From the IMG/VR virus record IMGVR_UViG_3300031519_000026, positions 1 to 53,999 of that record: a DNA stretch of 53,999 nt, one strand, 5' to 3'. Shown here one piece after another: positions 19,642 through 42,199 of the stretch. The notes under the pieces are model-generated. The model had not been told where the DNA came from. It searched no databases and saw only the letters and a program-made list of their open reading frames with translations. The position numbers and the translations under genes are program-made. How positions within the stretch are numbered: position 1 is the stretch's first letter; each line of letters opens with the position of its first letter. Source of the stretch: a virus (Duplodnaviria; Caudoviricetes).

Positions 19642-19669
19642 ATAAAAAACTCCCATAATGTAATAACTT

Positions 19670-19742: not shown

Positions 19743-19913
19743 ATGAATATGTACACAAAAGCAATTATCTCTCTCTTCAATGTTAGCGAAGAAGTTGCAA
19801 AAACAATTCAGTTTCAGATGGAATGCTCTGATTTCGATTTTTCTGAAGCTACTAACAAGCAGTTCAAGCAAGAAGCAGAATTTGCAATGATGGACCTTGG
19901 CCTCGTAGTATAA
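19743..19913 (+). CDS. 56-aa acidic hypothetical protein (not in ORF track)
   Basis: MNMYTKAIISLFNVSEEVAKTIQFQMECSDFDFSEATNKQFKQEAEFAMMDLGLVV; AAGGA RBS; promoter upstream; fills the intergenic gap. Confidence 0.7.
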   Translation: MNMYTKAIISLFNVSEEVAKTIQFQMECSDFDFSEATNKQFKQEAEFAMMDLGLVV

Positions 19914-19916
19914 ATA
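19909..19916 (+). promoter_or_regulatory. T4-type late promoter for the + strand radical-SAM operon
   Basis: TATAAATA overlapping the stop of the 56-aa ORF, ~25 nt before the cupin start. Confidence 0.7.
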
Positions 19917-19941
19917 CATTTATATTATGAGGAAGGTGACT

Positions 19942-20406
19942 ATGATTTTTCAAGACTTTGAAAACTTCTTATTAACAGAAGAATGTTTTGATAATCACGA
20001 TGTTTCCGTCATCGACAAAGACGGGCTTCAACACTATCTAAATACAAACAACGAAGACTATATGACTTATCTTGCTGTTATTTCGCTCGAGATTGGCGTC
20101 TGGGCGAAAACAATAAAAGTTGAGCAAATAGAAAAATGGTTTGATTATAACGATAGAACTGCACATGCATTTTATAACCAAGTGAACAGCGGAACTTTTA
20201 GTGTACATACCGACCCTGTTGATGTTATAATAGAATGTTTGGACGGCAGAAAATATATGGAAGTTGAAGGTAAAGAAATAATCTTAGAACCACACGACAC
20301 TCTCCTCATACCAGCAAATACCGAGCACAGAGCGCTCAACAAAGAAAAGGCATTGATGATATCATATGGCATTAACGACACAGAAACATTTAGTCGTATA
20401 CGTTAA
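19942..20406 (+). CDS. Cupin/JmjC-like Fe-dependent oxygenase (minimal)
   Basis: F..HTD..DV......G.K and L.P.D.L.IP....H.A, giving an HxD...H triad; GAGGAAGG RBS (alternative start 19927). Confidence 0.7.
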   Translation: MIFQDFENFLLTEECFDNHDVSVIDKDGLQHYLNTNNEDYMTYLAVISLEIGVWAKTIKVEQIEKWFDYNDRTAHAFYNQVNSGTFSVHTDPVDVIIECLDGRKYMEVEGKEIILEPHDTLLIPANTEHRALNKEKALMISYGINDTETFSRIR

Positions 20407-21394
20407 AACGACTGAAACGTGCAATCTAGATTGTAGTCATTGTTTTACTTCGGGATCAAAAGGACGTAAAATCTATTTTGATGCAAAGAAGACTGCTGAA
20501 TGGTGCAACGAACTTCAGACAGATGATAACCAAATTCATTTTGAATATCATGGTGGTGAGCCTATTCTTGCGCCAATGAAAGACTTAATGGAGTTCTATA
20601 ATATCACAAAAGAAAAATGGGGTGATAGATGTACACACGGTATTACTACTAATCTAGTTTACAAACTTACTGACGAAAGACTCGAATTTCTTAAAATGCT
20701 AGACTCTGGTTCTATTGGAACATCTTGGGATCCGAACATTCGTTTTAGTAATGAGAAGCAACGCAAGCTTTGGGAAGATAATGTTAAACGTTTAGTTGCA
20801 GAAGGCTGTTTTGTAAAGTGCTTTATATCGGTATCTAAAGACGTCGTAAAAATGAATCCTATTGAAATATCTGATTATATGCATTCTCTTGGTATAGAAG
20901 CTATTAACTATGAACGTTTAACCCACGACGGTAATGCTACGATTAACACAGATATATTCCCACATAATTCTGAGCTTGACGCATTTTGGATGAGAGTTCA
21001 TGAAACAACAGCTGATCATCCTGTATACGACAGTTATATGAATACAGTGTATGATAAGTTTAGTAAAGGTCAATTCTTCAATGGTACGTTCTGTCGTGAT
21101 TGCGAGCAGAAAATTCATACAATTAATGCTGATGGTACTGTAGCTGGTTGTCCTAATACTGCTCCTACACAATGGTACGGCGATATTAGTATGCCTGCTA
21201 AAACTGTTAGACAAAGTCCGAAGAGAATGGAAGTTATAGCATGCGAAACTCATGAACGAGATCCAAGATGTTACGACTGTCCTGTTTTTATATATTGCCA
21301 TTCAGATTGTCATCAATTACAATGGATGGGAGATGTATGTCCAGCACCTAAGACTCTAATGCTTAAGCTTGCAAAGGATAAAGGATGGATTTAA
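20366..21394 (+). CDS. Radical SAM/SPASM protein (rSAM-A1)
   Basis: CNLDCSHC, HGGEP, SPASM-type CRDC..DG.V.GCP..CYDC-x5-C-x3-C..C. Confidence 0.92.
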   Translation: MALTTQKHLVVYVKTTETCNLDCSHCFTSGSKGRKIYFDAKKTAEWCNELQTDDNQIHFEYHGGEPILAPMKDLMEFYNITKEKWGDRCTHGITTNLVYKLTDERLEFLKMLDSGSIGTSWDPNIRFSNEKQRKLWEDNVKRLVAEGCFVKCFISVSKDVVKMNPIEISDYMHSLGIEAINYERLTHDGNATINTDIFPHNSELDAFWMRVHETTADHPVYDSYMNTVYDKFSKGQFFNGTFCRDCEQKIHTINADGTVAGCPNTAPTQWYGDISMPAKTVRQSPKRMEVIACETHERDPRCYDCPVFIYCHSDCHQLQWMGDVCPAPKTLMLKLAKDKGWI

Positions 21395-22422
21395 TTATTA
21401 AGCCAACTGAGGCTTGTAACTTTAAATGTACTTTCTGTTCATCAACAGATATAGATCCAAATGAAGTTGGGTTGTTAGATTTAGAATTTATCTTTAGATT
21501 TCTAAAGCGGTATCCTGATACAAATACGATCATTGTTAATGGTGGAGATCCTCTTATGGTCAAGCCTCAGTACTATTGGGATCTGATTAATCACCTCGAT
21601 GAACACGATTATCCGGCATCAATTAGCTTTACTTCTAATCTTTGGCCATTCTTAATGCGACCCGAGAAATGGTTGCCTATCTTTAAAAACGAAAGGTTTG
21701 GTTGTGCTACGTCATTCCAATATGGAGGCGGCAGGTTAAAGGGAGATTACTCAGAGTTTACAGAAGCTGATTTTTGGATGGTTTCAAATGCAATGTTAAA
21801 ACACACTGGTGAACGTCCAGACTTTATAGCTGTAATAACTGATGAGAATGAGCATCTCGCTATAAAAAACGTTGAGCTTGCTAAGGAAATGGGCGTTGAG
21901 TGTAAACTCAATTATGCTATGGCATCTGGTGTTCAAGGTTCCACATATCAGCTAAGCAAAATTTATGAAACATATCTAGAAATATATGACCGTGGATTAG
22001 CAGAATATGAATATAACACCAAACAAATGATAAAAAGATTAGGTGGTTCAGCTACCTCTTGCCCACAAAACAGATTATGCGATACTGGCATTCGTGCCTT
22101 TAACCCAGGCGGCGATTATTATTCTTGCGGTTCTTTTGCTGATGATATGGATTATCCAATTGATTTTGAAGAAGAAATGAATGGTGAAATGCAAACACCG
22201 TTACAAAATGATCCTAATATCCAAACAATGAAAATGGCTTGCTATACTTGCCCTATGTTTGAAATATGCAATGGATGTAAAAAGACAGTACGTGATATGA
22301 AAAGAGAAGGCACTGCAGAAGAGCATTGTCGTAGAATGAAAACACTCGCTCCAAGAATACTTGCTACGAACGGAATGGGTCCAGATATGGTGACGCCTTA
22401 TGTTGATGAATCTATCAATTAA
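21385..22422 (+). CDS. Radical SAM/SPASM protein (rSAM-A2)
   Basis: IIKPTEACNFKCTFC, GGDP, C..C..GDYYSC..CYTC-x5-CNGC..C. Confidence 0.92.
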   Translation: MDLIIKPTEACNFKCTFCSSTDIDPNEVGLLDLEFIFRFLKRYPDTNTIIVNGGDPLMVKPQYYWDLINHLDEHDYPASISFTSNLWPFLMRPEKWLPIFKNERFGCATSFQYGGGRLKGDYSEFTEADFWMVSNAMLKHTGERPDFIAVITDENEHLAIKNVELAKEMGVECKLNYAMASGVQGSTYQLSKIYETYLEIYDRGLAEYEYNTKQMIKRLGGSATSCPQNRLCDTGIRAFNPGGDYYSCGSFADDMDYPIDFEEEMNGEMQTPLQNDPNIQTMKMACYTCPMFEICNGCKKTVRDMKREGTAEEHCRRMKTLAPRILATNGMGPDMVTPYVDESIN

Positions 22423-23314
22423 TCCTACGTATTATTGTAACTTCGCGTGCGATTTCTGTTACCTTACTACTGCACAGTTAAATGATAGACATAAGATAAC
22501 ACCTTTGTGGTTAGAACATAACCTACAACAAATTACTGACGAGATTGGTCATGTTGATTTGTATGGCGGAGAGATTGGATTACTAACACCAGAGTATTAC
22601 TATTCGCTTAAAAAGGTGATTAAAAGATACTATGGTGGTACTATTAATATCAATACTAACTTATCAGCATTTCCAGATTTCTTTAGAGATGACGATGTAA
22701 CGTTATCTGTATCATATGATTTTCACGCAAGGGAAAAAGAACAACATGTTTTAAATAACATGATGAATGCAAACAAAGATTTGTCTGTGCTTATATTGGC
22801 ATCACCAAAGGTTTTAGAGATGGATGTTGAGTTTATGATCTTTACTTTAAACATGGTTTCTAATGTTAAGTCTGTAGAAATTAAACCATATTCTGTTAAT
22901 CAAGCAAATCAACACGAAGTTACGCACAAAGACTTTGAAGATTTTGTCATTAAGTTTGATGAAGCTAAAACAGAAAAGAAATTTAACTTTCAAAATATAG
23001 ATAATATATACGATAGTATAGAAGGAAAGTACGATGCTTTCTCAAACGATCATGTTTATATCACACCAAACGGTAAATACGGCGTGCTTGAATTCGATAA
23101 ATATGATAGAGAATACTTTAAAGAGTATAACACGTATTATGAATATAAGACTTGGGCACGTGAAGAACCCGATAAAAACTTGTCTGATATATGTAAGAAG
23201 TGTAAATATTATGGCAGTTGTTTAACAGAACACTATCGATATGTTAAAGATTTGACTAATAGTTGTAATGGATATAAAGGTTTATTGGAATATTATGAAA
23301 GAATGGAAAGCTAG
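22400..23314 (+). CDS. Radical SAM protein with partial SPASM (rSAM-A3)
   Basis: CNFACDFC, YGGEI, C-terminal CKKC-x5-C..C. Confidence 0.9.
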   Translation: MLMNLSINPTYYCNFACDFCYLTTAQLNDRHKITPLWLEHNLQQITDEIGHVDLYGGEIGLLTPEYYYSLKKVIKRYYGGTININTNLSAFPDFFRDDDVTLSVSYDFHAREKEQHVLNNMMNANKDLSVLILASPKVLEMDVEFMIFTLNMVSNVKSVEIKPYSVNQANQHEVTHKDFEDFVIKFDEAKTEKKFNFQNIDNIYDSIEGKYDAFSNDHVYITPNGKYGVLEFDKYDREYFKEYNTYYEYKTWAREEPDKNLSDICKKCKYYGSCLTEHYRYVKDLTNSCNGYKGLLEYYERMES

Positions 23315-23693
23315 ACAAAGCGCATATCATTTAACAGCATCGTTGTTTAAAGATGATTTAACAGATGTTGATGTTAATTGGCAACCTGATTTAACAGTTG
23401 AATTTGCTTTAACTCATTTCAAAGAATATGTAGATGAATGGATTTATCCTGCAAAGTCATATGTAGTTGCTATATGCTATGCTCATTGGCTGAGCAGAGA
23501 TTTTAAAGAAGACTTTTATGAAGCATTGAATGATCCAGAGTTACTATTCAATAATGATCCGCATTTTATACCTTACTGGCAAGACAAAGAAACTTATGAT
23601 GCCATACTTTCTGAGCTAGACTTTAACGAAAAGCTTGGTATGGTACCTGACATATACGAATACTATAAAGAGGAAATGTTGTTTGGACTTTAG
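23295..23693 (+). CDS. Hypothetical acidic/aromatic protein within the rSAM operon
   Basis: ORF overlaps both flanking rSAM genes; no motif recognised. Confidence 0.65.
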   Translation: MKEWKARQSAYHLTASLFKDDLTDVDVNWQPDLTVEFALTHFKEYVDEWIYPAKSYVVAICYAHWLSRDFKEDFYEALNDPELLFNNDPHFIPYWQDKETYDAILSELDFNEKLGMVPDIYEYYKEEMLFGL

Positions 23694-24759
23694 CTTCACT
23701 AAGCAAATACTAGAGAGTAAGCGACCAGACATCGCTGAGATTGAGATGACGTTGTTTGAAAACTGTCATCTCAACTGTTCGTTTTGTCATCACGATAAGA
23801 AGTCAACTGTTGGTTTATCACGGGAAGCAATATTCTCTAAGATCCCATTAGTTGAAGAACATGTTATTAAAATGAAAGGTCGTGCAGACGTCATTCAAAT
23901 TAATATGCTTGGCGGTGAACTATTCCAAGACAGAATATCAGAATGGGCTTACGATGTTTACTATGATTTTATGGTAGAGATTAAAAAGATCTATGATGAA
24001 CATAAACAAAAGATTAAAGTTGTATGGGTAACATCATTTCAGTTTAGTAAACGAGATAGGGTTCAGAAACTTCTCGACGATTTAAACGCTATTGATATTC
24101 CATCATATATTATTTGTTCATATGATTTTGACGGTAGACCAACAAAGGGTCCATACGCTAAGAACATAGAATATTTCTCAGATTATATTACATCAATTAA
24201 CATGGTTGCTACGACATTAAGCATTAGAAAGTTTATGGCAGATGAGGATGAATACTTCCATTATCTGTACGATAAGTTTGATAACTTTTACTTTGATGAT
24301 TATATTCCTGACCGCGGACATGATCATATGATACCATCAGATAGTGAGTACCTCGAGTTTTTAAAATTCGTATACCATAACTATCCTGACATTAATCCTA
24401 TCAAAGATCTTATATATAATGATAGTAACCACATGCATTGCTTAGCTTTAAATAAGGTTACGATCTTTCCAGATAATTCTACATCTAATTGTAGATGGGA
24501 TAGATATGATCAAAGAGATTTTAATACGAAGTACGAGCCAAAAGATAATGCTGGCATGATGCAGGCATACATGGACGAGAACGGTTGCCTGTCTTGCCAA
24601 TGGTACAACAAGTGTGGATTTAGATGTTACACACAATGGGATTGGAAGAATAGAGAACGTGATTTGCCAGATTGTATTATGAGAATGTGGTTTAATTACA
24701 TGGACAAAACAGGACAAAACAAAATTACAGGATTTGATTATGAAAAAACTAAAAATTAA
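23683..24759 (+). CDS. Radical SAM/SPASM protein (rSAM-A4)
   Basis: CHLNCSFC, LGGEL, C..C..CLSC-x5-C-x3-C..C; probable TTG start after GAGG. Confidence 0.9.
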   Translation: MDFSFTKQILESKRPDIAEIEMTLFENCHLNCSFCHHDKKSTVGLSREAIFSKIPLVEEHVIKMKGRADVIQINMLGGELFQDRISEWAYDVYYDFMVEIKKIYDEHKQKIKVVWVTSFQFSKRDRVQKLLDDLNAIDIPSYIICSYDFDGRPTKGPYAKNIEYFSDYITSINMVATTLSIRKFMADEDEYFHYLYDKFDNFYFDDYIPDRGHDHMIPSDSEYLEFLKFVYHNYPDINPIKDLIYNDSNHMHCLALNKVTIFPDNSTSNCRWDRYDQRDFNTKYEPKDNAGMMQAYMDENGCLSCQWYNKCGFRCYTQWDWKNRERDLPDCIMRMWFNYMDKTGQNKITGFDYEKTKN

Positions 24760-25453
24760 CGCATACACCCACAGTAAACAAGTTTATGAATATCAACCCA
24801 TTGTTACTAAACAATGGAAACCTACTTGGTGGAAAAACTTAACGACTATGTACAAGATATACCATAGCAAATCTGGCGTCATGGTACCAACACCCACAGT
24901 AAAAGCTTGTCCTGGGATTACACAATATATGCAAAAAGCTATTATCATGCGCATGTGGTCTGATGTTATTCTGAAGATTAAACCAGACGGAAAAGTTACG
25001 AGTGTTGCTCCATTACATAATCTCAACGCAGTATCATCTGGTATTCACGAAAAAGCTCAATACGGAGATGGTTTGTATCCAGGATTTACGGTCTGCAAGC
25101 TTGAATCTCCGTGGTACTTCTTAGCATCAGATGATACGAGTTTTATGAACACTGAATATCATTATGATGAATCTTTAAGAAAACATGGAATACAAATAGC
25201 ACCAGGAATTCTTAATTTTAAAGACCAACACGCAACTAATATATTTTTATTGATACCTCTTAAAGACGAAGAGTATGAAATAGAGCTAAAATTCGGTCAA
25301 CCGTTGATGGCGCTTTTCCCCATGACTGATAAGCAAGTTGAAATCAAAAATCATTATGTTAAAGATCCGGTGGAATGGAATGAATTGAACAACATTTTCC
25401 CAAATACGTTCTTAGGTCGCTATTACGCCGGGAAACACGCACGAAACAAGTGA
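24740..25453 (+). CDS. Hypothetical protein (TxKxCPG motif)
   Basis: P.WWK, TVKACPGI, K..SPW, PGI..F, G.PL..L.P pattern; AGGA RBS. Confidence 0.6.
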   Translation: MKKLKINAYTHSKQVYEYQPIVTKQWKPTWWKNLTTMYKIYHSKSGVMVPTPTVKACPGITQYMQKAIIMRMWSDVILKIKPDGKVTSVAPLHNLNAVSSGIHEKAQYGDGLYPGFTVCKLESPWYFLASDDTSFMNTEYHYDESLRKHGIQIAPGILNFKDQHATNIFLLIPLKDEEYEIELKFGQPLMALFPMTDKQVEIKNHYVKDPVEWNELNNIFPNTFLGRYYAGKHARNK

Positions 25454-26431
25454 GTGATGTTCCATATAACTTAGTACACCTTTATCAATACAGGTCATCA
25501 TGTTAGGGCAGGAGCCACAATTAATTGTTTCATTTGAGTACGTTAATTGTTTCATAAAATGGAACGATTTGGCTTCTGTCCACGACTCAATATCATTCTC
25601 ATCTTTAACTTGGAATTCATCAGTACCTATTAAAGCGATGTCATATACGAATGGTGTCCAAAAGAAACGTTCGTTGCAGTAAGTATAGTTTAGTTCTAGC
25701 GAACCGCCTTGTGCTTGGTCAATAAATGTTTTAGGCATAAGATCATCTGAGAAATCATAGCCTTTCCATTTTTCAATTAAATGTTTTTGAACTTTAGATT
25801 TTGGTGCTCTAAAGAACGATGGGTTTAGTGTAAGGATTGAATCAAACCTATCCTCAACAAGTTCAGACATTTCAAGCACTTTAGAATTGTACTCGTCATC
25901 ATTACCCATGTTATAAACCATATAATAATTTAGATCATCTGTAAATCCATTCAGAAGGTCTAATCGCTCTTCTACCCAATCCCAATTTACAGGAGGTTGC
26001 AGCGCAATATTAGCGTCATACATAAATCCATCTATTTTAGGGATGCTGTTAAGTAGTTCAATAACTTCTTGCGAAATGCTTGTTAGGGTTGTTACGAATT
26101 GTATAGTAGAAACCTTGCTTAAACACTCTCGAAATGTTTCGTCTTTTAATAACTCAATAACATTGTTATTACCAAATAAATCAGTAGGACCAATATTAAT
26201 TGTTGATACTCTATAACCATTCTTATTGAATAGATCAATCGCGTTGTTTAGTCTGTCGTATGATCCCATGTTTGAGCCAAGTTTATTAACAAAACAACCT
26301 TTGCATTTAAACTCGCACCCCGATAATACTTCACAATTAAATTGTATCTTGATCTCATGTCCTTCATTAAAAGACAGATCAAAATCCTTGTCAGCTTGTG
26401 CTGCACGTTTATTGTTAGTAACTATTCCCAT
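25412..26431 (-). CDS. Atypical radical SAM protein, GPTD type (rSAM-B5)
   Basis: GCEFKCKGCF, IGPTDLF, C-terminal CGSC-x5-C..C. Confidence 0.8.
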   Translation of the reverse strand: MGIVTNNKRAAQADKDFDLSFNEGHEIKIQFNCEVLSGCEFKCKGCFVNKLGSNMGSYDRLNNAIDLFNKNGYRVSTINIGPTDLFGNNNVIELLKDETFRECLSKVSTIQFVTTLTSISQEVIELLNSIPKIDGFMYDANIALQPPVNWDWVEERLDLLNGFTDDLNYYMVYNMGNDDEYNSKVLEMSELVEDRFDSILTLNPSFFRAPKSKVQKHLIEKWKGYDFSDDLMPKTFIDQAQGGSLELNYTYCNERFFWTPFVYDIALIGTDEFQVKDENDIESWTEAKSFHFMKQLTYSNETINCGSCPNMMTCIDKGVLSYMEHHSLVSCVFPGVIAT

Positions 26432-27554
26432 GATAAACCTCATCATCATATAAACCAATCACATCTTTATTTAAGATGCATTCTTTTCTTCCATCAAACA
26501 CTGTATCCATAATCATCGGAACCATTCTATTCGCACATATGTTTAGATACTTGCAACTACCACATTCTTTATCAGAACTTTGTTCTATTTGATCGTTTAC
26601 AACCTTATTCTTTTTGTTTAGAATAGAATCAACTATATTACCATCAATGTTTACTTTGAAAGCATCGTTGTGTAATTGAGCATTCTCATATATGAATGGC
26701 GACATATACATATTGCCTTGGTGTAAACTCACTACCGAATAGTTAAATGCTTTGTGTGAAACGTCACCTTGTAAAAAATGAAACTTGTTTTTGAAACGAT
26801 GTTGGTCTATTGCTAAGCGTGTTAGCATATCATTCCATTCGAAGAGTTTGTCACCGTGTTTTGCGCTATGGTTAAATGAACGAACTACTGATGGTAATAC
26901 TTCAATTACTGTTTCATATTTTGAACGAACGAAATCTATAGCAGGGTACAATATATCCTCTACACCATGTACGATATTAGTAGCCATACTTATTTCAAAG
27001 TTTAAAGAACTATTCTTAAAAGTTTCAATTCTTTCGTCTAATGCATTTAAGTATTCTTGATCATTCATTAAACGGTTCAAGTCTAGTGCAATCTGCACAT
27101 CCCAAGCCTCAACAACCTTACCTAACGGTGATTCTTCGATAGCTTTAATTTTGCCTTGAATGTCTTTTTCTGATAATGAGCCAAGTATAGAACAGTTATG
27201 TTGGATGTTTCTATTATCTTTTGGCATCATTAGTATGGCATCTGCAAGTCTTGGGTTATTGATAATGTCTATGAGATTTTCTGCACCGTAGAAATCAGTT
27301 GGTCCTATTACAATATCGTCTAATACAACATCTTCTCTGTCTTTTAATTCATATGATAATTCGTGAAATAAGCTGATTGATTTTGGGTTCCAATTACCAC
27401 GGCGTTTAACAAAACAACCTGGACACATATAAGAACAACCTTCAAGAATTTCTAGATTTACTTGAATTTTGTACTGCTTCATACTGTCTACTGAAGTAAA
27501 CTCTTCACCAATACCGCCACCGCTTACGATGTCTTTCCATTCATTATTTAACAT
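26415..27554 (-). CDS. Atypical radical SAM protein, GPTD type (rSAM-B4)
   Basis: GCSYMCPGCF, IGPTDFY, CGSC-x5-C..C. Confidence 0.8.
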   Translation of the reverse strand: MLNNEWKDIVSGGGIGEEFTSVDSMKQYKIQVNLEILEGCSYMCPGCFVKRRGNWNPKSISLFHELSYELKDREDVVLDDIVIGPTDFYGAENLIDIINNPRLADAILMMPKDNRNIQHNCSILGSLSEKDIQGKIKAIEESPLGKVVEAWDVQIALDLNRLMNDQEYLNALDERIETFKNSSLNFEISMATNIVHGVEDILYPAIDFVRSKYETVIEVLPSVVRSFNHSAKHGDKLFEWNDMLTRLAIDQHRFKNKFHFLQGDVSHKAFNYSVVSLHQGNMYMSPFIYENAQLHNDAFKVNIDGNIVDSILNKKNKVVNDQIEQSSDKECGSCKYLNICANRMVPMIMDTVFDGRKECILNKDVIGLYDDEVYHGNSY

Positions 27555-29710: not shown

Positions 29711-30524
29711 CTAATTCTAATTCTGATAATTCTGGTGTTTCGAAATTAATAAAGAACGAACTTGGGAAAAACGCCATTATTTGACCCATAACTTTTGTAT
29801 GGTTTAACACATAATATAAATCTTTGCCGAAATATTTAGGTGAATCGTTAAACACAGATTTATTGTACGTTTGGCTTAATCCCCTCATGTGTGTAATTGC
29901 TAAAAATCCATCTAGACCTTCAGTAACAAATCTTGCAATGTTAGGACCACACTTTGCTGGCTTGTCTACGATAGTAATCTCATCGACAAAATTCTTGAGT
30001 TCTACCTCTTTAATTCTGTTTTCTTCTGGCATTGTTTCATATAACTTGTGCAAAGAAAATGGTATTACATCTCTGATTGTTTCGATAAGCTCGTCAACAA
30101 GATCAAAGTTACCCTCTATAAACTTATGTATTTCATCTTCTGGCCATATTTTATAAAACATTTTATCTGCGTCATTAAGTTCGTAGTGCAATCTGTGTCT
30201 AATAAGCATAGATACAAACCTTACAAGAATCGGAGAGTCCACCATAAAATCAGAAGTAATATATTCTTTAATAAGATCTTCGTCAACGGCGCTGAAGCCG
30301 GTTTTAAAATTGGTGTTAGCAAGATATATCATAATATGCTTAGCAGAAAGTTTTTCTTTTGACGCAAGATAATCAACGTAAAGAATATAATCTTTCTTTT
30401 CTTCTTTTTCTTTATAAATCGCAACTAGGTCCTGAGGAGCCAGAGGTAATTTATAGCAAGTAATTGACTTAGCACGTTCATCTAGTTCTTTTTCACTTAT
30501 TAGTTCTTCACTTTTATCAATCAT
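29691..30524 (-). CDS. Hypothetical protein in the rSAM operon
   Basis: 277-aa ORF overlapping the downstream rSAM gene; no motif recognised. Confidence 0.65.
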   Translation of the reverse strand: MIDKSEELISEKELDERAKSITCYKLPLAPQDLVAIYKEKEEKKDYILYVDYLASKEKLSAKHIMIYLANTNFKTGFSAVDEDLIKEYITSDFMVDSPILVRFVSMLIRHRLHYELNDADKMFYKIWPEDEIHKFIEGNFDLVDELIETIRDVIPFSLHKLYETMPEENRIKEVELKNFVDEITIVDKPAKCGPNIARFVTEGLDGFLAITHMRGLSQTYNKSVFNDSPKYFGKDLYYVLNHTKVMGQIMAFFPSSFFINFETPELSELELDDSPPE

Positions 30525-30534
30525 AATTTATATC

Positions 30535-31620
30535 CTAATCAGTTAATGTATATTTGTGGATCAAGTAAGGAATTCTATTCTGCCTTTTGGAAAAGAACTG
30601 AACATCAGTATTAATCAATCTTAAATCTTCTGTTAAGTTATCCATGTCAAATGTTCTTTCTAGAACTTTCTTTACGATTGGAAAAACGTTATTAATTTCT
30701 GTGTACAAATCCCAGAATTCCCAACCATCAGGGCTAGCATCTCTTTTATCGGAGTGTACCTGAATAAATGCAGCGTTGTCTTTTACTCTGTTCCACAATT
30801 CCTCAAGCTTATAAAACGCAACTTGATAATTACCGTTGTTAGCAGCTTTTAAATAAGTCTCGTTGATGAATTCTTGTTTGTCTACCGGTAATTCATTAGC
30901 ATTCATCCAATCAATTACAGAAAGAATATAAGCCAAGTAGTGGCGACGAGATGTAAAGTGTTCCATAACATCTTGAGCCATATCTGCGCTGTGAATAGTA
31001 AATTTCTCAATTAAAAGAGATTGAACTTCTGGACACGGGTAATAATCATTTAAGTAAAACAACAGATCATAGCTAAAGTTTTTACCATTTTGATAAACCA
31101 CAGTGAATGGCGGCGTGTCTTCGTGTCCAAGAATACCGTTGGCATATGCTGAAATATCTGCTACTACCGAAGATCCAGCCATATATGTGAACATACTATC
31201 GCAAGAAATTACTTTTTCTAAGAATTGTGCTGCAATATCGTTTACATTATAATCTGTGTCTGAATAAAATCCGGCAGCAGTTAATAGACCAGAAACATAT
31301 CTTGCGTGCATTGCAATTTGATCATCTTCTTCCCAAAATACTAATATGCATTTTTCGCTGTTTTGAATATAATCTTCTGTGATTTCTTCCCACTGCTTAA
31401 ATACAATTTCCGCGCCAATTCCATCGCGAAGTGCGTCTGCTCTTACCTGGATATCACCCGGTATAAGCTGATTATCTACTCTTGAAGGATGCACACAAAC
31501 AATAGTTCTGTGTCGTTTTGTATGGTAAAAGCTGTTTATTTCAGATATGACAGTTTCTAAATTAGTAATATTGGTAATGTATTTTTTGTTGTTTAAAAAA
31601 TAAAGATGTTGGCCAATCAT
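30535..31620 (-). CDS. Hypothetical protein in the rSAM operon
   Basis: 361-aa ORF, ATGA-coupled to the upstream rSAM gene; no motif recognised. Confidence 0.65.
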   Translation of the reverse strand: MIGQHLYFLNNKKYITNITNLETVISEINSFYHTKRHRTIVCVHPSRVDNQLIPGDIQVRADALRDGIGAEIVFKQWEEITEDYIQNSEKCILVFWEEDDQIAMHARYVSGLLTAAGFYSDTDYNVNDIAAQFLEKVISCDSMFTYMAGSSVVADISAYANGILGHEDTPPFTVVYQNGKNFSYDLLFYLNDYYPCPEVQSLLIEKFTIHSADMAQDVMEHFTSRRHYLAYILSVIDWMNANELPVDKQEFINETYLKAANNGNYQVAFYKLEELWNRVKDNAAFIQVHSDKRDASPDGWEFWDLYTEINNVFPIVKKVLERTFDMDNLTEDLRLINTDVQFFSKRQNRIPYLIHKYTLTD

Positions 31621-32792
31621 GATATTGCTCCTAGTTTTTCCATTGCATCATCGTTCCACGTCCAATCAGTTGGATTATATTGATCCAATACATCCTTATT
31701 CAGGACACAGCCGTTAACGTTTAATGATTCTTGCGCTTCGAATATTAATCTGCTAGCACATGCTACTGCAAATTTGCAATCAGCACAGTCACTAACCTTG
31801 CTTGACTTATTTATACCTTTAGTAACAAGTTCGTTTTTACGATCTAATATTTCTTCGAATGATAAACCAGTAACATCTAAATTCTTATTATTTAAGAAAA
31901 ACGCTTGTTCGTGAAGCATTACATTTAAGTGTGTTGTTGGACCATCAGCACCAGGTACAATTGTAAGACCAACAAAGTTTATTGAATTACAATACAGATT
32001 AGCCATCGACATAACTGTTTCTTGCGCGTTATCTTCATCAATAACTTTACCAAGAAATTCGTTCCAGCCGAATAGATTTCTGCGTTGAATTAATTCTGAT
32101 CTAGCTCTTGAAAAGGCAGGGTTCATTTCAACAATTGTTTCATATTCGTTAACTGATTTTTGGATAATTCTGTTATATGTTTCCTTATCAATTTTCTTAC
32201 CCACAACATTAGAAGCCTGGAGTGTCCAAGACCAATCCATTTGTTTAGGTGTACTATCTTTAAAGAACTTGACTTTCTGCATGACTGAATTAAAGTAATC
32301 TTCATCATCCAACATTTGTGATACTTTACCTATTGGCATGATAAATTCTATAATCATTTCTCTACGAAATTTGTCTTCGTCATCTAAGATGGCAAATATT
32401 TCTTCTACCTTTTCCATAGTTGCGATATCAAATTTAGCAGGCGCTGCAATTCTGGCACCAGTATGTTCTCTCATAATTTCTTGCACAACCGAGTTATTTA
32501 ATACAGATTCTGTATTTGTCGCCGAAAAGAAATCAGTCGGTCCAATAACAAATTCTCTTAAATTAAGACCAGTTCTTTTGATACCATCAGTAAGTTCTTT
32601 TGCTCTGTCTATAATCATTTGATTCATTTCTGGATCAATATTTTTATCAACAAAACACCCTAAACAACCATGATCGCAACCAGCTAAAACTTCCATTTGA
32701 ATAAGAACATCAAATTTATTTGTATCAGATGGTGCAAGACTTTCTGGACCAGAATATCTCATTTGTTTGCAGTATGATTTTTGCATAGACAT
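31617..32792 (-). CDS. Atypical radical SAM protein, GPTD type (rSAM-B1)
   Basis: GCDHGCLGCF, IGPTDFF, CADC-x5-C..C; ATG overlaps the stop of the upstream CHxS-repeat gene (TAATG). Confidence 0.8.
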   Translation of the reverse strand: MSMQKSYCKQMRYSGPESLAPSDTNKFDVLIQMEVLAGCDHGCLGCFVDKNIDPEMNQMIIDRAKELTDGIKRTGLNLREFVIGPTDFFSATNTESVLNNSVVQEIMREHTGARIAAPAKFDIATMEKVEEIFAILDDEDKFRREMIIEFIMPIGKVSQMLDDEDYFNSVMQKVKFFKDSTPKQMDWSWTLQASNVVGKKIDKETYNRIIQKSVNEYETIVEMNPAFSRARSELIQRRNLFGWNEFLGKVIDEDNAQETVMSMANLYCNSINFVGLTIVPGADGPTTHLNVMLHEQAFFLNNKNLDVTGLSFEEILDRKNELVTKGINKSSKVSDCADCKFAVACASRLIFEAQESLNVNGCVLNKDVLDQYNPTDWTWNDDAMEKLGAIS

Positions 32793-33208
32793 TAGCGTCT
32801 TCCTCTCGATGTGTGACAACTACTATGGCAACTAGCGTGACATACGTTAATTGTAAACGACACATTATTAATTCGACCCTCTATCAGATCTACTGTTCTT
32901 CTTACGCCGTCTTCAATAGTATCAACGATATCTTGCGCGTACATTAGCCCTCCTGCTACTACACCAGCATCGTAATAACCGTCGTATAAACTATCAGCAG
33001 CGTTTACGTATTCCATTCTATGTCCCTGGTTCCAGAGCGTTGTATATTGTTTACCGTCTAGGCGCATCGCTCCGCCGTATGTGCTATCAAACCCGTAAGT
33101 TCTAACATAGGCTGTTACACCATAAGTTACAGTCTTGTCAAATGTTCGTAATGCCGCGCCAGAATATGTTTGCACGTAAGAGTTTAGATCAGCAACTGTA
33201 GCAACCAT
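32792..33208 (-). CDS. CHxS-repeat protein 2, candidate radical-SAM substrate
   Basis: 138 aa ending CHASCHSSCHTSRGRR; all its Cys lie in this tail; paralog of the adjacent gene. Confidence 0.75.
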   Translation of the reverse strand: MVATVADLNSYVQTYSGAALRTFDKTVTYGVTAYVRTYGFDSTYGGAMRLDGKQYTTLWNQGHRMEYVNAADSLYDGYYDAGVVAGGLMYAQDIVDTIEDGVRRTVDLIEGRINNVSFTINVCHASCHSSCHTSRGRR

Positions 33209-33621
33209 TATCTTCTACCTCTAGATGTATGACAACTGCTGTGGCAGCTTTGGTGGCAGGGAGAAATACTAAACGTTCTATTGCCCAGTCTACCTTCAAT
33301 CAAATCAACAGTTCTTCTAATCACGCTTGTAATAGAATCAATAACATCTTGAGAACTGATGATGTTACCTGTGTAAATACCGCTATCTAAATAGTTGTTA
33401 TACACTGAGTCACCTGCGTTTACGTATTCGTAACGTTGGCTGTTATATACCAATCCGTAGGATGAATAACCGTTAACGAGCATCCAACTGCCGTATGCGC
33501 TATCAAAGCCCCAAACCCGCACCCATCCAGTTACATTAAGTTGAATCGTTTTATCAAACGTTCTCAGCTGGCTGCCTGCTTTTGACTGCATGCTCGTGTT
33601 TAAATCTGCATATGATGGCAT
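33208..33621 (-). CDS. CHxS-repeat protein 1, candidate radical-SAM substrate
   Basis: 137 aa ending CHQSCHSSCHTSRGRR; starts 1 nt after the giant fibre stop. Confidence 0.75.
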   Translation of the reverse strand: MPSYADLNTSMQSKAGSQLRTFDKTIQLNVTGWVRVWGFDSAYGSWMLVNGYSSYGLVYNSQRYEYVNAGDSVYNNYLDSGIYTGNIISSQDVIDSITSVIRRTVDLIEGRLGNRTFSISPCHQSCHSSCHTSRGRR

Positions 33622-33622
33622 A

Positions 33623-36600
33623 TTATACTTTCACCTCTACTTCACCTTCTCCATCGCAATCACCTATAGCGATGCCTATGATCTCATGACTATTTATACC
33701 ACTTGTACCATAGTCTACAGCGCGGCCTTTTCCATCTACATCAGCAATAACCCATTGACCCTTTTTAGCAGAACCGTGGATTAACACAGGAATACGTCCT
33801 TTAAGAGCTATAAATGGAGCCATCATAGCATCTATTGATTTGTCATCAGGATCGTAACCCATATCATTCATCATAACAGCAGGTAATGTCGAAACACAAC
33901 CAGCTAAAGGCATACCGGGTTGGTAAAGAGTAACTTCTTTATCTCCATTGATATCAATAGCTAAAACTGTGCCTGCTGGATATATATCATCTGCAGTATA
34001 TCTTTCCGCCAAATCCGCCCATCTTGCTGACGTAGCTGTACCGACATAAAGACCGTCATTATTAACATAAGCTTTATCAGTACCATCTCTACGGAATTGA
34101 CAAATTCTATTTGAGTTACCACCAGCAGCGATATAAAATCTATCTGAGTGATATTCAATTTTACCTTTATCATTTCCAGGGTTACCGGTCCAAGTTGTGT
34201 TCGCATCTTCGTAGTACCAATGGTTTGGTGAATAGCCATCTGCCATTCTTGTACGAATTTGCCATTGTCCACCAGTGTTTAGATAACCACACCAGTTGCT
34301 AGTGTCTCCGTGTAGCCACATTCTAATGCTACTATTATATGAAGACCTTAACTGCAAACTTATTGAAGAGTTGCTGTTACCAGAGATAGCATAGTATGCA
34401 CTTTGGTATGAGTAAGCGTGAACACCAGTATTTTGGTTATACACACCTTCGCCAGAATCGTCATTACGGAACCAGTTACGAGCATAAACCTCGTTGGCAC
34501 GAACACTCGTGTTAAAGACAGAAGCACCTGCAGGGTTGGAATAATAGGTAGTGTTGTCAGAATCATAGAAGATAGGCGCTCTGAAACTGTATGCTGAGTA
34601 AGCATAATTTGAATCGCCGTAAACTCTAAATAAGGCAGTTGTGACCATGGCGCCAGATGCTGAACCGTGACGCCCAACATAGAAGTCAGCTCCAGATGTG
34701 TTGTTGTTATTTGAGTCTAAGTTAAAGAAAATACTTCCGTATGAGTTGATACGAATATCGTCAGATACATCACCTGCAGTGTTTCTTGAAGTGATTGAGT
34801 GGTTTTGACTATTATCACCATAAAAGGTAATAAAGTCACCACGATCTCTTGCGTTTAACTGATCCCATTCAATTGTACCCATTTGAGATGTAGAAGCTGG
34901 ATTTGTATAACGATTTGTATCGTTTGAGTCATAGAAGATTGGAGCTCTTAATGAACTGCCAGCTTGTAACGAGTTATTTACATGAACATCGTTTTGACCT
35001 AAAGGATCAGAACCGTTATTGATTGACATGACCTGAGTTGCCATATTATAATCGTTATAGAAGCGAATACCGTTATAAGTGTGATAAGCGCCCATCTTAA
35101 TACCAGTATGGAAAGCAATTCTTAGATCAGGGTATGGGGTAGACCAACCACCACTTTCACGATAAATGGCGTAAGCAGCAGATTCATTAGTGTTAAAATA
35201 CATACCGAAAGTATTATCATCACTTACTGCACGTCTATGAACAAATCTGTTTGCTCTAATATCCTCAGCAAATAGCGAGTCTCCAGCCGGGTTGGAATAA
35301 TAAGAACTGTTATTACGGTCATAGAAAGTATTAGCATATAAACTGCCGTAAATTTCAGTCGTAGAACTATTAGTTCTTAATGCCCAGCTTGCATCTTGGT
35401 TAAGAAAACCGATGTTATTGGTGTTATTGGCATATACGTAACCACGAATAGTACCACCGCTCTCGTCTCTAAAGCGTATAGCATTTGCTCCAGTTCCACC
35501 AGCGACGTTCCAATAATCATCGTCATCTGAATAGAAGTGTTGACCCGTTGCAGTGTTATATAGACCTTTACCGCTTGTATCATTACGGAACCAACCATCG
35601 TTGTAGATTTCGCCACGAATATCGAGTGTGTTCATTACTGATGTACCAGCAAAGTTACCGTAATAACCAGTACTATCTTTATCATAAAATGTACCAGCAT
35701 AAGCACCACCTGTAACCATTAAGTTACCGTCACCTCTAATAATGAGGTTTGTAGTACCACCTAATCCACCATCTTTAAACGCTATATCTTCTCCGCCAGA
35801 AGTAGCAATAATTAAGTGCGCATCATTTGTTTCTGTTGCTTGAATATAGCCACGAACATTGCCAGATGCTGATTGGAAGTTTGCAGAACCACCAGAAGTA
35901 AATTGTACTGTATTCATTATAGATGTAGAAGCAAAGTCACCGTAGTAAGAAGAGTCATTTGCGTCATAATATCTTGATGCGTAAAAAGGTGTATCTCCTG
36001 GGTTTGAGTTGTAGATAGCAATATCAGAATATGCTGAGTACGCAGTACCTGAGTTCCAAGTTTGTTGCCATAAACGCATACCACGACCAGTTTTCTTAAA
36101 CATAAGAAGGTTATCTGATCCGCCGGAAGCATCTGTGTATGATCTTAAGTGGAGGTAATCTGCATAAGGTGCAGTGTTATTATTATTCCAAGATGTGAAA
36201 CCGAACCTTAGTTGTCCAGCCGTATCTTCATTTGGCTCAATAATTCTGTTATCTCTTCTTACGAGAGAACTAGCATAACCTGTAACACCTGGTGTTGTGA
36301 TTGCTTGATCAACAGTTAATCCTAAGAACCTTGATGTACTAGCAAAGTTGCCGTTATACGTTGTATTGTCGCTATCATAAAAGATAGGTGAACGAACTTG
36401 GTTAGTACCTAAGAAGAAACCATCTTTAGTAGAGGCTTGTTCTGTGCCATCCCAATAAAGTTCGACATCGCCATTCTGACGATAAATCGTAGCCCATTCG
36501 TTGTTAGTATCATTATAGATACCAGCAACGCCAGCTCCACTTGACATGAATACCCAGTCATCGTTAATAGCATAACCTGCATAACCACCTTTATTACCAG

Positions 36601-42154: not shown

Positions 42155-42191
42155 TCGGTTCACTCTCCCCAGTTAGGCTTCTATTTTCTTT

Positions 42192-42199
42192 TATTTATA
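42192..42199 (-). promoter_or_regulatory. T4-type late promoter upstream of the giant fibre
   Basis: TATAAATA on - strand, intergenic. Confidence 0.8.

What the first reader, a model, noticed from the sequence alone, without database searches (positions are those of the whole stretch)
19909..33698. Phage-encoded RiPP-like maturation island: nine radical-SAM enzymes plus twin CHxS-repeat substrates, wired into the late tail-fibre programme
Seen: nine ORFs with CxxxCxxC and C-terminal Cys clusters form two convergent, tightly overlapping operons (4 on +, 5 on -). They sit with a JmjC-like cupin, four unknown proteins, and two paralogous small proteins whose only Cys are in a terminal CHxSCHSSCHTSRGRR. 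TATAAATA boxes precede both arms (19909 and 33691; also 42192). The CHxS genes begin 1 nt after the giant fibre stop and are TAATG-coupled to each other and to the first rSAM. Established: rSAM/SPASM enzymes commonly mature ribosomal peptides (sactipeptide/ranthipeptide thioethers, cyclophanes, epimerisation), and Cys-every-fourth-residue targets are known beside bacterial rSAM genes. Inference: the phage heavily modifies its own late proteins, probably virion/fibre components. I recognise no exporter or leader peptidase, which fits a product that is virion-bound or released at lysis. I know of no characterised phage system with this architecture.
Basis: partly seen in the sequence, partly recalled or inferred. 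Interest (0 to 1): 0.95.

Follow-up and report, generated by a model that had tools for sequence, protein, structure and literature searches.

The report
Phage radical-SAM island with CHxS-tailed proteins
A marine T4-like phage carries nine radical-SAM enzyme genes next to two small proteins that end in an invariant Cys-His-x-Ser tail; the same gene set recurs in unrelated giant phages and predatory bacteria, which points to an undescribed protein-maturation system tied to tail fibres.

Summary
There are nine CxxxCxxC genes (four on +, five on -), a cupin, four unknown genes and twin small genes ending in CHxSCHSSCHTSRGRR. The twin genes sit directly behind a 2,846-aa fibre gene, and TATAAATA boxes precede both arms.

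The island is not unique to this contig. A core set recurs with one-to-one orthologs in five of five cultured jumbo phages examined: Ralstonia RSF1 and RSL2, Agrobacterium Atu_ph07, Sinorhizobium Phosso and Pseudomonas DT01. It also recurs in hundreds of viral contigs and in six Bdellovibrionales MAG contigs. The core is cupin, four SPASM-type rSAM paralogs (rA1-4), u141, u277/R73, a 2OG oxygenase and a protein ending in (CHxx)3-R-x-RR.

Tail and enzymes co-occur in both directions: 80 of 80 tail-seeded loci, and 72 of 80 rA2-seeded loci, with the other 8 cut by contig ends. The nearest named relatives of rA1 are all peptide or protein maturases (PapB, DynA, anSME, YhhB, DarE), far below family cut-offs.

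My best reading is that the rSAMs crosslink the invariant tail, by His-to-Ser cyclophanes and/or Cys thioethers. The tailed proteins are expressed late and are probably fibre or baseplate associated. No chemistry or virion location is shown. I found no description in print.

The parts
19081..19656 (-).
   Evidence: phrog_81 E 4.6e-26. Homolog of RSF1 ORF082, E 9e-14. Found in most rA2-seeded loci.
19909..19916 (+). TATAAATA box 11 nt before the cupin ATG (T4-type late-promoter consensus, recalled)
   Evidence: the only + strand site in the window
19927..20406 (+). cupin / JmjC-like protein (core)
   Evidence: Cupin_2 1.6e-7, JmjC_2 2.2e-6. Orthologs are RSF1 ORF069 and Atu_ph07 gp172.
20366..21394 (+). 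rA1, SPASM-type radical SAM (core). In the other lineages it lies directly beside the CHxS gene.
   Evidence: CNLDCSHC plus 8 conserved C-terminal Cys. 42-43% identical to RSF1 ORF070 and Atu_ph07 gp171. NCBIfam and PDB neighbours are peptide maturases.
21385..22422 (+). rA2, SPASM-type radical SAM (core, the most conserved)
   Evidence: Pfam Radical_SAM 33.9 bits. 56-60% identical to RSF1 ORF079 and Atu_ph07 gp165. 331 relatives in viral contigs. Best PDB hit is anSME, 3e-5.
22400..23314 (+). rA3, radical SAM with a 4-Cys C-terminal cluster (core)
   Evidence: CNFACDFC; orthologs are RSF1 ORF081 and Atu_ph07 gp164
23268..23693 (+). u141, unknown conserved protein (core)
   Evidence: phrog_20737 1.2e-36. 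Homolog of RSF1 ORF085. Present in 58 of 80 tail-seeded loci.
23635..24759 (+). rA4, SPASM-type radical SAM (core). The start is uncertain; the TTG is only the longest-ORF start.
   Evidence: CHLNCSFC; orthologs are RSF1 ORF075 and Atu_ph07 gp168
24734..25453 (+). u239, unknown protein (accessory)
   Evidence: phrog_7084 4.8e-18. Present in 15 of 80 tail-seeded loci.
25412..26458 (-). rB5, divergent radical SAM
   Evidence: CEFKCKGC plus CxxCx5Cx16C; phrog_31457; paralog of rB1-4
26415..27554 (-). rB4, divergent radical SAM
   Evidence: CSYMCPGC. SPASM-domain model 8e-4, below cut-off.
27544..28701 (-). rB3, divergent radical SAM
   Evidence: CHHKCPGC. Pfam Radical_SAM 6.7e-5, below cut-off.
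28688..29710 (-). rB2, divergent radical SAM
   Evidence: CSQMCPGC; paralog of the other rB genes, related to RSF1 ORF074
29691..30524 (-). u277, unknown protein; same family as RSF1 ORF073 and Atu_ph07 gp169 (core)
   Evidence: hhalign probability 99.1, E 5.6e-19
30535..31620 (-). u361, unknown protein (marine T4-like group only)
   Evidence: Present in 48 of 80 tail-seeded loci, all of the T4-like type. No family found.
31617..32792 (-). rB1, divergent radical SAM, TAATG-coupled to CHxS2
   Evidence: CDHGCLGC; junction read
32792..33208 (-). CHxS2, 138 aa; tail CHASCHSSCHTSRGRR encoded at 32795-32842
   Evidence: phrog_35144 9.6e-9
33208..33621 (-). CHxS1, 137 aa; tail CHQSCHSSCHTSRGRR encoded at 33211-33258
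   Evidence: 141 homologs; 120 of 120 listed keep the tail.
33691..33698 (-). TATAAATA box inside the fibre gene's 3' end, 70 nt before the CHxS1 ATG
33623..42163 (-). giant fibre-like protein, 2,846 aa; its stop lies 1 nt before CHxS1
   Evidence: No Pfam family. Its C-terminal region is kept directly before the CHxS genes in 46 of 48 related loci.
42192..42199 (-). TATAAATA box 29 nt before the fibre start

Best explanation
The island is one copy of a conserved, horizontally spread maturation module. Its target is the invariant 16-residue C-terminal tail C-H-x-x-C-H-x-x-C-H-x-x-R-x-R-R. That tail is carried, behind a conserved helix and a short strand, by proteins with very different N-terminal domains.

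The SPASM-type radical-SAM paralogs rA1-rA4 always occur together. In this phage group the five rB paralogs join them. I propose that these enzymes abstract hydrogen atoms from the tail and install covalent side-chain crosslinks. The most likely products are three-residue His-to-Ser-C-beta cyclophanes on each H-x-S unit and/or Cys thioethers. The cupin and 2OG oxygenases would add oxidative steps. The result would be a rigid, basic, crosslinked C-terminal knot.

In this T4-like phage the two substrate genes are transcribed late. They are translationally coupled to a giant fibre gene upstream and to the first rSAM downstream. The matured proteins most likely act with the fibre or baseplate, as a tip, adhesin or assembly partner.

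Shown: the anatomy, the conservation, the co-occurrence, and the family neighbourhood of the enzymes. Inferred: that the tail is the substrate, the type of crosslink, the timing, and the virion location.
For: 1. One-to-one orthologs of cupin, rA1-4, u141, u277/R73, the 2OG oxygenase and a CHxS-tailed protein occur in RSF1 and Atu_ph07. These phages are otherwise unrelated to the window. rA2 is 56-60% identical. The tail is also found right after cupin-rA1 in DT01, Phosso and RSL2, so in 5 of 5 cultured phages examined.

2. The tail is invariant while the rest varies. 120 of 120 close homologs keep it. 112 of 125 representatives at 50% identity keep it, with total lengths of 58-541 aa. Synonymous codons vary (TGT/TGC, CAT/CAC), so selection acts on the protein. 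The two protein types share only the last ~54 columns, namely helix, strand and tail (hhalign 99.5%).

3. Co-occurrence holds in both directions. 80 of 80 tail-seeded loci hold an island rSAM within 10 kb. Of 80 rA2-seeded loci, 69 hold a tail ORF, 3 more have one on the same contig, and 8 are cut by contig ends. Of 24 long T4-like contigs, 19 hold the pattern. The 5 without it end less than 10.4 kb downstream of rA2. The reversed-pattern control gave 0 in all 24.

4. Enzyme neighbourhood. All 41 rA1-family members hit PapB and DynA, 40 hit anSME, 35 YhhB, 35 HxsB, 31 DarE and 15 the CXXX-repeat maturase. Profile hits in the PDB are 8vpo, CteB (name recalled for 5wgg), anSME and the cyclophane synthase ChlB.

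5. H-x-x units fit the triceptide motif. Radical-SAM enzymes crosslink His-C2 to the C-beta of residue 3 on HTK, HAA and HNR motifs (PMC11499958, passages read).

6. Late and fibre context. TATAAATA boxes precede both arms. The junctions are read. The fibre C-terminus ends 3-16 nt before the first CHxS gene in 46 of 48 related loci. Baseplate, giant structural or S74 fibre genes lie beside the module elsewhere.
Against: No modification has been observed anywhere.

No rSAM reaches any curated family cut-off (for example 52 bits against 650 for DarE). Chemistry therefore cannot be transferred from a named family.

The rB proteins are so divergent that 3 of 5 give no Pfam hit at all and a fourth gives only Fer4_12 at E 0.0096.

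No RRE-like recognition domain, peptidase or exporter was recognised.

The tail is modelled with low confidence, pLDDT 50-61.

The CHxS protein is annotated only as 'hypothetical', not 'virion structural', in the RSF1 record.

A Cys/His-rich tail could simply bind metal.

Four distinct conserved rSAMs are more than a three-repeat tail obviously needs.

One variant contig has four CHxS repeats, no RGRR end, and lacks rA3 and rA4.
Confidence: 0.6

Rival explanations
1. The tail is a metal or iron-sulfur binding site rather than a substrate. On this reading the CHxS protein is a fibre-tip or assembly protein, or a dedicated electron or cluster donor for the many rSAM enzymes. The rSAMs would act on another target, such as the giant fibre, another virion protein or a host component.
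For: The tail holds three Cys and three His in 12 residues with strict i/i+4 spacing. It is modelled as a short helix. Nine Fe-S enzymes need clusters and a reductant (established knowledge). Fibre and spike tips that bind Fe or Zn through His/Cys are known in phages (recalled).
Against: An electron carrier or cluster donor would not be expected to carry N-terminal domains ranging over 58-541 aa total length with hypervariable loops. The tail is exposed at the very C-terminus and ends in RGRR. Cx3Cx3C is not a usual cluster motif (recalled). This reading does not explain why four distinct maturase-like SPASM enzymes track the tail so strictly.
Confidence: 0.15
2. The CHxS protein is a disposable scaffold. 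The tail would be converted by the rSAMs and oxygenases into a small peptide-derived molecule or cofactor, which is then cut off and released. Models are PQQ, mycofactocin and scaffold-peptide pathways (recalled).
For: An invariant core with a variable remainder is the pattern of cofactor precursors rather than of antibiotic RiPPs (recalled), and it matches. Many different tailoring enzymes suggest a multi-step pathway. Four families remain unknown (u141, u277/R73, u361, u239) and could include a protease.
Against: No peptidase or exporter family was found. The N-terminal domain of the RSF1-type protein is a confidently modelled fold of its own (pLDDT 90.2), with lineage-specific variation. 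In this phage group the gene is locked to the fibre gene, which points to a function for the whole protein.
Confidence: 0.15
3. The rSAM array serves nucleic-acid, nucleotide-sugar or cofactor chemistry (DNA hypermodification, deazapurine or glycan synthesis), and the CHxS genes are bystanders.
For: Phage rSAMs are best known from queuosine-type and thymidine-hypermodification pathways (PMC8989533; only the search listing and the start of its abstract were seen). Weak hits to QueE-like, NrdG and MoaA models exist. A heptose kinase/adenylyltransferase-like gene lies 4 kb away.
Against: Those hits are weaker than the hits to peptide maturases. For the rA1 family, PapB reaches 2.6e-17 and MoaA 2.4e-4 in the PDB profile search. 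The near-perfect two-way co-occurrence with the tail is not expected for bystanders. No DNA-metabolism genes are shared between the lineages' modules.
Confidence: 0.05

Closest known systems
Triceptides: three-residue cyclophane RiPPs made by rSAM/SPASM 3-CyFE enzymes (HtkB, HaaB, YhhB, ChlB)
   Same: The motif is repeated aromatic-X-X units, and His is an accepted aromatic (PMC11499958). The tail holds three H-x-S units. The rA1 family hits YhhB (35 of 41 members), AmcB (29 of 41) and FxsB (24 of 41), and ChlB among solved structures.
   Different: Scores are far below the family cut-offs. A Cys precedes every unit. The target is the end of a folded 125-540 aa protein, not a short leader-core peptide. 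Four to nine rSAMs are present instead of one. The setting is phage and fibre. The crosslink has not been observed.
His-Xaa-Ser system HxsABCD (NCBIfam TIGR03976-9; defined bioinformatically and treated as putative in PMC9062424)
   Same: H-x-S repeats lie next to more than one rSAM maturase. rA1 hits HxsB at 1.2e-8, and rA2 hits HxsC at 4.4e-5.
   Different: The CHxS proteins hit no NCBIfam model at E<=0.1. The scores of 34 and 22 bits compare with cut-offs of 370 and 268. This is not a member.
CXXX-repeat peptide with its rSAM maturase (TIGR04115), and thioether RiPPs (PapB ranthipeptides; sactipeptides such as the CteB product)
   Same: Cys falls at every fourth residue. PapB is the most consistent hit (41 of 41 members, best 2.6e-17), and TIGR04115 hits 15 of 41. 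CteB (5wgg, name recalled) is a top PDB profile hit.
   Different: Only weak superfamily-level similarity is present. There are exactly three repeats with His fixed after each Cys. No leader peptidase or exporter is present. The thioether has not been observed.
Anaerobic sulfatase-maturating enzyme (anSME)
   Same: It is an rSAM/SPASM enzyme that modifies a Cys or Ser in a full-length protein rather than a peptide. It is the best full-length PDB match for rA1 and rA2.
   Different: The scores of 32-38 bits compare with a cut-off of 349. The tail's last unit, C-H-T/S-S-R, lacks the Pro/Ala of the sulfatase motif (motif recalled). No sulfatase domain is present.
Tail-fibre gene followed by a small chaperone or adhesin gene (T4 gp37-gp38 and Tfa-type arrangements; recalled)
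   Same: Small genes sit directly behind a fibre gene and are translationally coupled to it. The arrangement is conserved. The middle of the protein is hypervariable.
   Different: There is no sequence or fold similarity to any annotated chaperone or adhesin. In the other lineages the CHxS gene follows cupin-rA1 and not a fibre gene.

Membership tests
Radical SAM superfamily (PF04055) | CxxxCxxC motif that binds the SAM-cleaving 4Fe-4S cluster | tested here: met
   9 of 9 proteins carry it. It is invariant in 41 rA1 homologs.
Radical SAM superfamily (PF04055) | Pfam score at or above the gathering threshold of 29.5 bits | tested here: inconclusive
   Only rA2 passes, at 33.9 bits. rA1, rA3, rA4 and rB3 score 17-26 bits. 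rB1, rB2, rB4 and rB5 give no Radical_SAM hit at E<=0.01.
SPASM/twitch subgroup (TIGR04085) | C-terminal Cys-rich domain for auxiliary Fe-S clusters | tested here: inconclusive
   The window's rA1 (24.1 bits), rA2 (22.7) and rB4 (19.7) all fall below the cut-off of 27. 36 of 41 rA1-family members hit the model at E<=1e-5. rA1 has 8 conserved C-terminal Cys. rA3 and the rB proteins have 4.
Triceptide (3-CyFE) systems | aromatic-X-X motifs in the substrate | tested here: met
   There are three H-x-S units in every tail. The motif definition is taken from PMC11499958.
Triceptide (3-CyFE) systems | maturase belongs to a cyclophane-synthase family | tested here: not met
   YhhB scores 29.5 bits against 445, AmcB 34 against 425, and FxsB 24 against 370. 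Similarity is at superfamily level only.
Triceptide (3-CyFE) systems | aromatic-to-C-beta crosslink in the product | not testable with these tools
   This needs mass spectrometry or NMR.
His-Xaa-Ser system (Hxs) | HxsA-type repeat protein and HxsB/HxsC equivalogs | tested here: not met
   CHxS1 hits no NCBIfam family at E<=0.1. HxsB scores 34 bits against 370, and HxsC 22.5 against 268. HxsD was not tested.
Ranthipeptide/sactipeptide maturases (PapB, SCIFF, CteB type) | equivalog-level match of the maturase | tested here: not met
   PapB scores 35.8 bits against 340, and SCIFF 23.8 against 425.
anSME | equivalog match and a sulfatase substrate motif | tested here: not met
   The scores are 31.9-37.8 bits against 349. 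There is no sulfatase domain. The motif comparison rests on recall.
T4-type late transcription unit | TATAAATA box shortly upstream of the gene, on its strand | tested here: met
   Sites at 19909, 33691 and 42192. That they act as promoters is not testable here. The consensus is recalled.
Virion structural protein | detected in purified particles | not testable with these tools
   The only lead is the 'CDS 170-215' virion cluster in Atu_ph07 (PMC6102473). Its Table S5 is a supplement and is closed. Whether CDS 170 is the CHxS gene (RefSeq tag gp170) is unverified, because the GenBank record has no tags.

The most novel reading that the evidence does not exclude
Giant phages and predatory Bdellovibrionales share a weapon-like device. 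It would be a fibre- or baseplate-borne protein whose C-terminus is turned by a battery of radical-SAM enzymes into a rigid, polycyclic, basic 'warhead'. The warhead would engage or breach the Gram-negative outer membrane, for example as a pre-organised strand mimic in the manner of darobactin/dynobactin, whose maturases are among the nearest named relatives of rA1 and rA2. Alternatively it could act as a redox-active or metal-holding tip. This would be the first enzymatically crosslinked RiPP-type structure built into a virion.
Probability: 0.15. Interest if true: 0.95.

Novelty: new variant of a known kind. Interest (0 to 1): 0.8.

Why it matters
Radical-SAM maturation of ribosomal peptides is well known in bacteria. 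I found no description of a virus-encoded multi-enzyme version that acts on full-length, apparently structural proteins.

The module defines a sharply recognisable target, (CHxx)3-R-x-RR at the C-terminus, and at least four conserved enzymes of unknown chemistry. It occurs in five cultured phages that can be grown and mutated. It is common in marine and other viral metagenomes: 331 rA2 relatives in IMG/VR, and 126 tail-family representatives at 50% identity.

It therefore offers new radical-SAM chemistry. It also offers a possible new principle in how large phages build or arm their fibres, and an unexpected gene link between phages and predatory bacteria.

Tried and rejected
Searches of the phage collection. 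Megablast of the island found nothing. tblastn with CHxS1 found nothing at E<=1e-3. The second result was a false negative of that search, because the genome search later found the homologs in RSF1 and Atu_ph07 at about 1e-6.

Structure. The AlphaFold2 model of CHxS1 was poor (pLDDT 67.8), and its PDB fold search gave nothing at E<=0.001. The good model of the RSF1-type protein (pLDDT 90.2) also matched no PDB chain. In BFVD it matched only uncharacterised members of its own family. The N-terminal fold therefore gives no functional lead.

Complex prediction. Complex prediction of rA1 (alignment A6) with CHxS1 (alignment A1) gave 'no answer', with scores of 0.02 and 0.01 against a mark of 0.32. 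This counts neither for nor against binding.

Protein atlas. For u277 only unnamed clusters came back, at 0.90. For u141 there was no usable hit.

Profile comparisons. hhalign found no relative for u361, u239 or RSF1 ORF072. The rA3-u141 match probably reflects ORF calls that run from rA3 into u141, or fusions, and I did not follow it up.

Long rA2 matches. Matches of 1.29-1.43 kb in relatives looked like introns or inteins. Translation showed an intact rA2 followed by spill-over into the paralog rA3, so I rejected that idea.

S74 fibre domains. An HMM I built from 4 sequences found S74-like ORFs in only 11 loci (the window among them) among all ORFs of all stored loci. This is no general rule for the phage loci. 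The domain is striking only in the two Bdellovibrionales loci I annotated.

RNA evidence. Two metatranscriptome runs of one study hold a few 150-270 nt contigs identical to parts of rB3/rB4, u277, u361, rB1 and the fibre, at depth 2-4. DNA carry-over is not excluded, and no RNA contig covered the CHxS genes. I use this neither as evidence of expression nor of silence.

GTDB scan. One of the nine, L251, has no tail and no module.

Literature. Searches found no description of the module. The jumbo-phage papers only list the rSAM, cupin and 2OG genes. The comparative review PMC7824862 has no occurrence of 'radical SAM'. The single rSAM of cyanophage S-SCSM2R is called an antibiotic-synthesis gene there and is unrelated to this question.

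Closed sources.

Full report
WHAT THE WINDOW IS. The window is a whole IMG/VR virus record of 53,999 bp that CheckV estimates to be 24% complete. Its portal, sheath, large terminase and sheath-stabiliser genes are T4-like. The portal is at most 54.5% identical to any phage in the collection, the closest being the Sinorhizobium phiM12 group. Near-identical DNA occurs in seawater, brine and marine metagenomes of several studies.

The ORF map shows a + arm: cupin 19927-20406, rA1 20366-21394, rA2 21385-22422, rA3 22400-23314, u141 23268-23693, rA4 23635-24759 and u239 24734-25453. A convergent - arm runs in its reading direction from the giant fibre 42163-33623, through CHxS1 33621-33208, CHxS2 33208-32792, rB1 32792-31617, u361, u277, rB2, rB3 and rB4, to rB5 26458-25412.

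All nine rSAM candidates have CxxxCxxC and a C-terminal Cys cluster. Pfam support is weak: only rA2 passes the gathering score, and four of the five rB proteins give no Radical_SAM hit. PHROGs separates two families, phrog_1802 for rA and phrog_31457 for rB. hhalign shows rA1-4 to be mutual homologs (probabilities 96-99%), and rB to be related to them only around the cluster motif.

TATAAATA occurs 13 times against 7.0 expected, which is not significant as a count because 3 of 100 shuffles reach 13. However, all 13 sites face the downstream gene's strand and 10 lie within 70 nt of a start codon.

THE MODULE IS CONSERVED FAR BEYOND THIS PHAGE. tblastn with rA1 found 15 phage records, all of jumbo phages of Ralstonia, Burkholderia, Agrobacterium, Sinorhizobium and Pseudomonas.
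- In RSF1, ORF069-085 hold cupin, rA1, a 186-aa protein ending in CHSSCHSSCHGSRGRR, an rB, rA4, rA2, rA3, two 2OG oxygenases and u141.
- Atu_ph07 has cupin-like gp172, rA1 gp171, a 296-aa protein ending in CHSSCHASCHNSRSRR, and then rA4, rA2 and rA3.
- DT01 and Phosso have the same cupin, rA1 and tailed-protein order.
- RSL2 also has the tail.

Orthology is one-to-one: rA1 42-43%, rA2 56-60%, rA3 42-51% and rA4 29-37% identical. u277 belongs with RSF1 ORF073 and Atu_ph07 gp169 (hhalign 99.1%). The five-fold rB expansion, u361 and the twin CHxS genes are traits of the marine T4-like group.

THE TAIL. Of 141 homologs of CHxS1, all 120 listed end in C-H-x-x-C-H-x-x-C-H-x-S-R-G-R-R. A profile search of 1.84 billion representatives found 126 proteins. 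I examined 125 of them, and 112 end in the motif, with total lengths of 58-541 aa. The other 13 are mostly fragments or variants.

The T4-like type and the RSF1 type share only the last ~54 columns, namely a helix, a short strand and the tail. The RSF1-type N-terminal domain is modelled with high confidence (pLDDT 90.2, pTM 0.84) but has no counterpart in the PDB, and in BFVD it matches only its own family. Codons for the tail vary synonymously between contigs, so the conserved object is the peptide.

CO-OCCURRENCE.
- Seeding with the tail gave 80 viral loci, and 80 of 80 hold at least one island rSAM within 10 kb.
- Seeding with rA2, ordered by likeness to RSF1, gave 80 loci. Of these, 69 hold a tail ORF. 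Two more (L179, L190) have it just outside the fetched stretch. One (L234) has a variant with four CHxS repeats, no RGRR end, and no rA3 or rA4. The other 8 are cut by a contig end on the side where the tail gene is expected.
- Among 24 long contigs of the T4-like group, 19 hold the pattern: 17 with two tandem copies, one with three and one with one. The 5 without it end less than 10.4 kb downstream of rA2, which is the distance in the window. The reversed control pattern gave 0 hits in all 24.

I found no complete array that lacks a tail gene.

WHAT THE ENZYMES RESEMBLE. For the window's rA1, the best NCBIfam hits are DarE (3.7e-14), CbpB, DynA, DarW, PapB, HxsB and AmcB. For rA2 they are DynA (2.4e-12) and anSME. 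Across 41 rA1-family members the most consistent hits are PapB and DynA (41 each), anSME (40), the SPASM domain (36), YhhB and HxsB (35 each), DarE (31) and the CXXX-repeat maturase (15). A profile against PDB sequences finds 8vpo, 5wgg, anSME, ChlB, a GDGT synthase, YydG and MoaA.

All scores are an order of magnitude below the curated cut-offs, so these are new families within the SPASM maturase radiation. Still, the neighbourhood is protein and peptide modification, not DNA-base or cofactor synthesis.

MECHANISM PROPOSED. The tail can be read as three C-X-X-X units, the thioether-type target. It can equally be read as three H-x-S units. The second reading fits the triceptide rule, in which rSAM enzymes link an aromatic residue, His included, to the C-beta of the third residue (PMC11499958). 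H-x-S repeats beside paired rSAMs are also Haft's still putative Hxs system (PMC9062424).

I therefore propose crosslinking of the tail by the rA enzymes, and in this phage by the rB enzymes as well, with oxidative tailoring by the cupin and 2OG enzymes. This is inference, and nothing here shows a modification.

FIBRE CONTEXT. In 46 of 48 loci of the T4-like group, a homolog of the fibre's C-terminal region (45-71% identical) ends 3-16 nt before the first CHxS gene. The two exceptions are cut at the locus edge. In Atu_ph07 and Phosso the module lies a few kb behind a giant virion structural gene of more than 13 kb. In RSF1 and DT01 it lies among baseplate, spike and structural genes. The Atu_ph07 paper places a virion-protein cluster at 'CDS 170-215', and the CHxS gene bears the RefSeq tag gp170. 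I could not verify the numbering or see the proteome table.

CELLULAR GENOMES. Two are T4-like contigs binned into a Rhodobacteraceae MAG. One has no tail or module. Six are contigs of Bdellovibrionales MAGs with rA1-4, u141, R73 and a tailed protein.

One of these contigs (299 kb) has ordinary bacterial neighbours: an ABC transporter and a phosphonate-binding protein. It also has a pilin-like protein with an S74 fibre-chaperone domain, a B12-binding rSAM and a 2OG oxygenase. Another contig has three S74-like proteins just upstream of the module, two of them confirmed by Pfam. Whether these contigs are chromosomal or mis-binned phage DNA is open for all but the first.

VERDICT. The finding is real, and the comparison with other genomes strengthens it considerably. 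It is a new variant of rSAM peptide maturation. It is virus-borne and uses many enzymes. It acts, I infer, on the C-terminal tag of full-length proteins, and it is linked to fibre genes. Its chemistry, its purpose and its presence in virions remain to be shown.

Noticed in passing
window 48902-53596 (-) and 19081-19656 (-): A 1,564-aa fibre protein has 8 collagen-repeat stretches (Pfam Collagen 2.5e-78) and a C-terminal Peptidase_S74 chaperone domain. A 2OG-Fe(II) oxygenase in the same window could be a prolyl hydroxylase for it rather than, or as well as, a part of the CHxS module. This is inference.
   Followed up: no
window 18268-18603 and 18618-19004 (-): Two adjacent small paralogs both match DUF7936 (6.9e-14 and 5.5e-10). 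Each is preceded by a TATAAATA box. Their function is unknown.
   Followed up: no
window 15206-15985 (-): This protein matches phrog_7878, a bifunctional heptose 7-phosphate kinase / heptose 1-phosphate adenylyltransferase (1.5e-27). It is a sugar-nucleotide gene sitting among structural genes.
   Followed up: no
L245 (contig of L234), protein of 192 aa: A variant tail has four CHxS repeats and ends in GDGPGNGGGV instead of RGRR. On this contig no rA3, rA4 or u141 was found near rA2. It may be a decaying or re-purposed system.
   Followed up: partly
L248, L249 (GTDB contigs FZLS01000005.1 and FZLS01000029.1): Two different T4-like phage contigs with the full island and twin CHxS genes are binned into one Rhodobacteraceae MAG. 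This is either mis-binning or a weak hint at the host group.
   Followed up: no
L250, L252-L256 (Bdellovibrionales MAG contigs): The module occurs in six MAG contigs of predatory bacteria. In the two loci I annotated, proteins with S74 fibre-chaperone domains lie beside it, one of them with a pilin-type N-terminal methylation motif.
   Followed up: partly
alignment A1, residues 105-111 of CHxS1 (window about 33289-33309): The motif V-D-L-I-E-G-R just before the tail is nearly invariant in the T4-like group but absent from the RSF1, Atu_ph07 and DT01 proteins. L/I-x-E is the cleavage consensus of the T4 prohead protease (recalled). A cut there would free a 28-residue tail peptide. This is untested.
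   Followed up: no
BFVD hits A0A8S5USJ7, A0A8S5USJ8, A0A8S5USV2 (Myoviridae sp. ctijX18): One uncultured myovirus has three long proteins (504-660 aa) whose models match the RSF1-type CHxS protein. This suggests that the domain can be part of much larger proteins.
   Followed up: no
L250 7222-8949 (+): A B12-binding-domain radical SAM (B12-binding 1.7e-5, Radical_SAM 4e-4) sits inside the Bdellovibrionales version of the module. It is an enzyme class absent from the phage versions I looked at.
   Followed up: no
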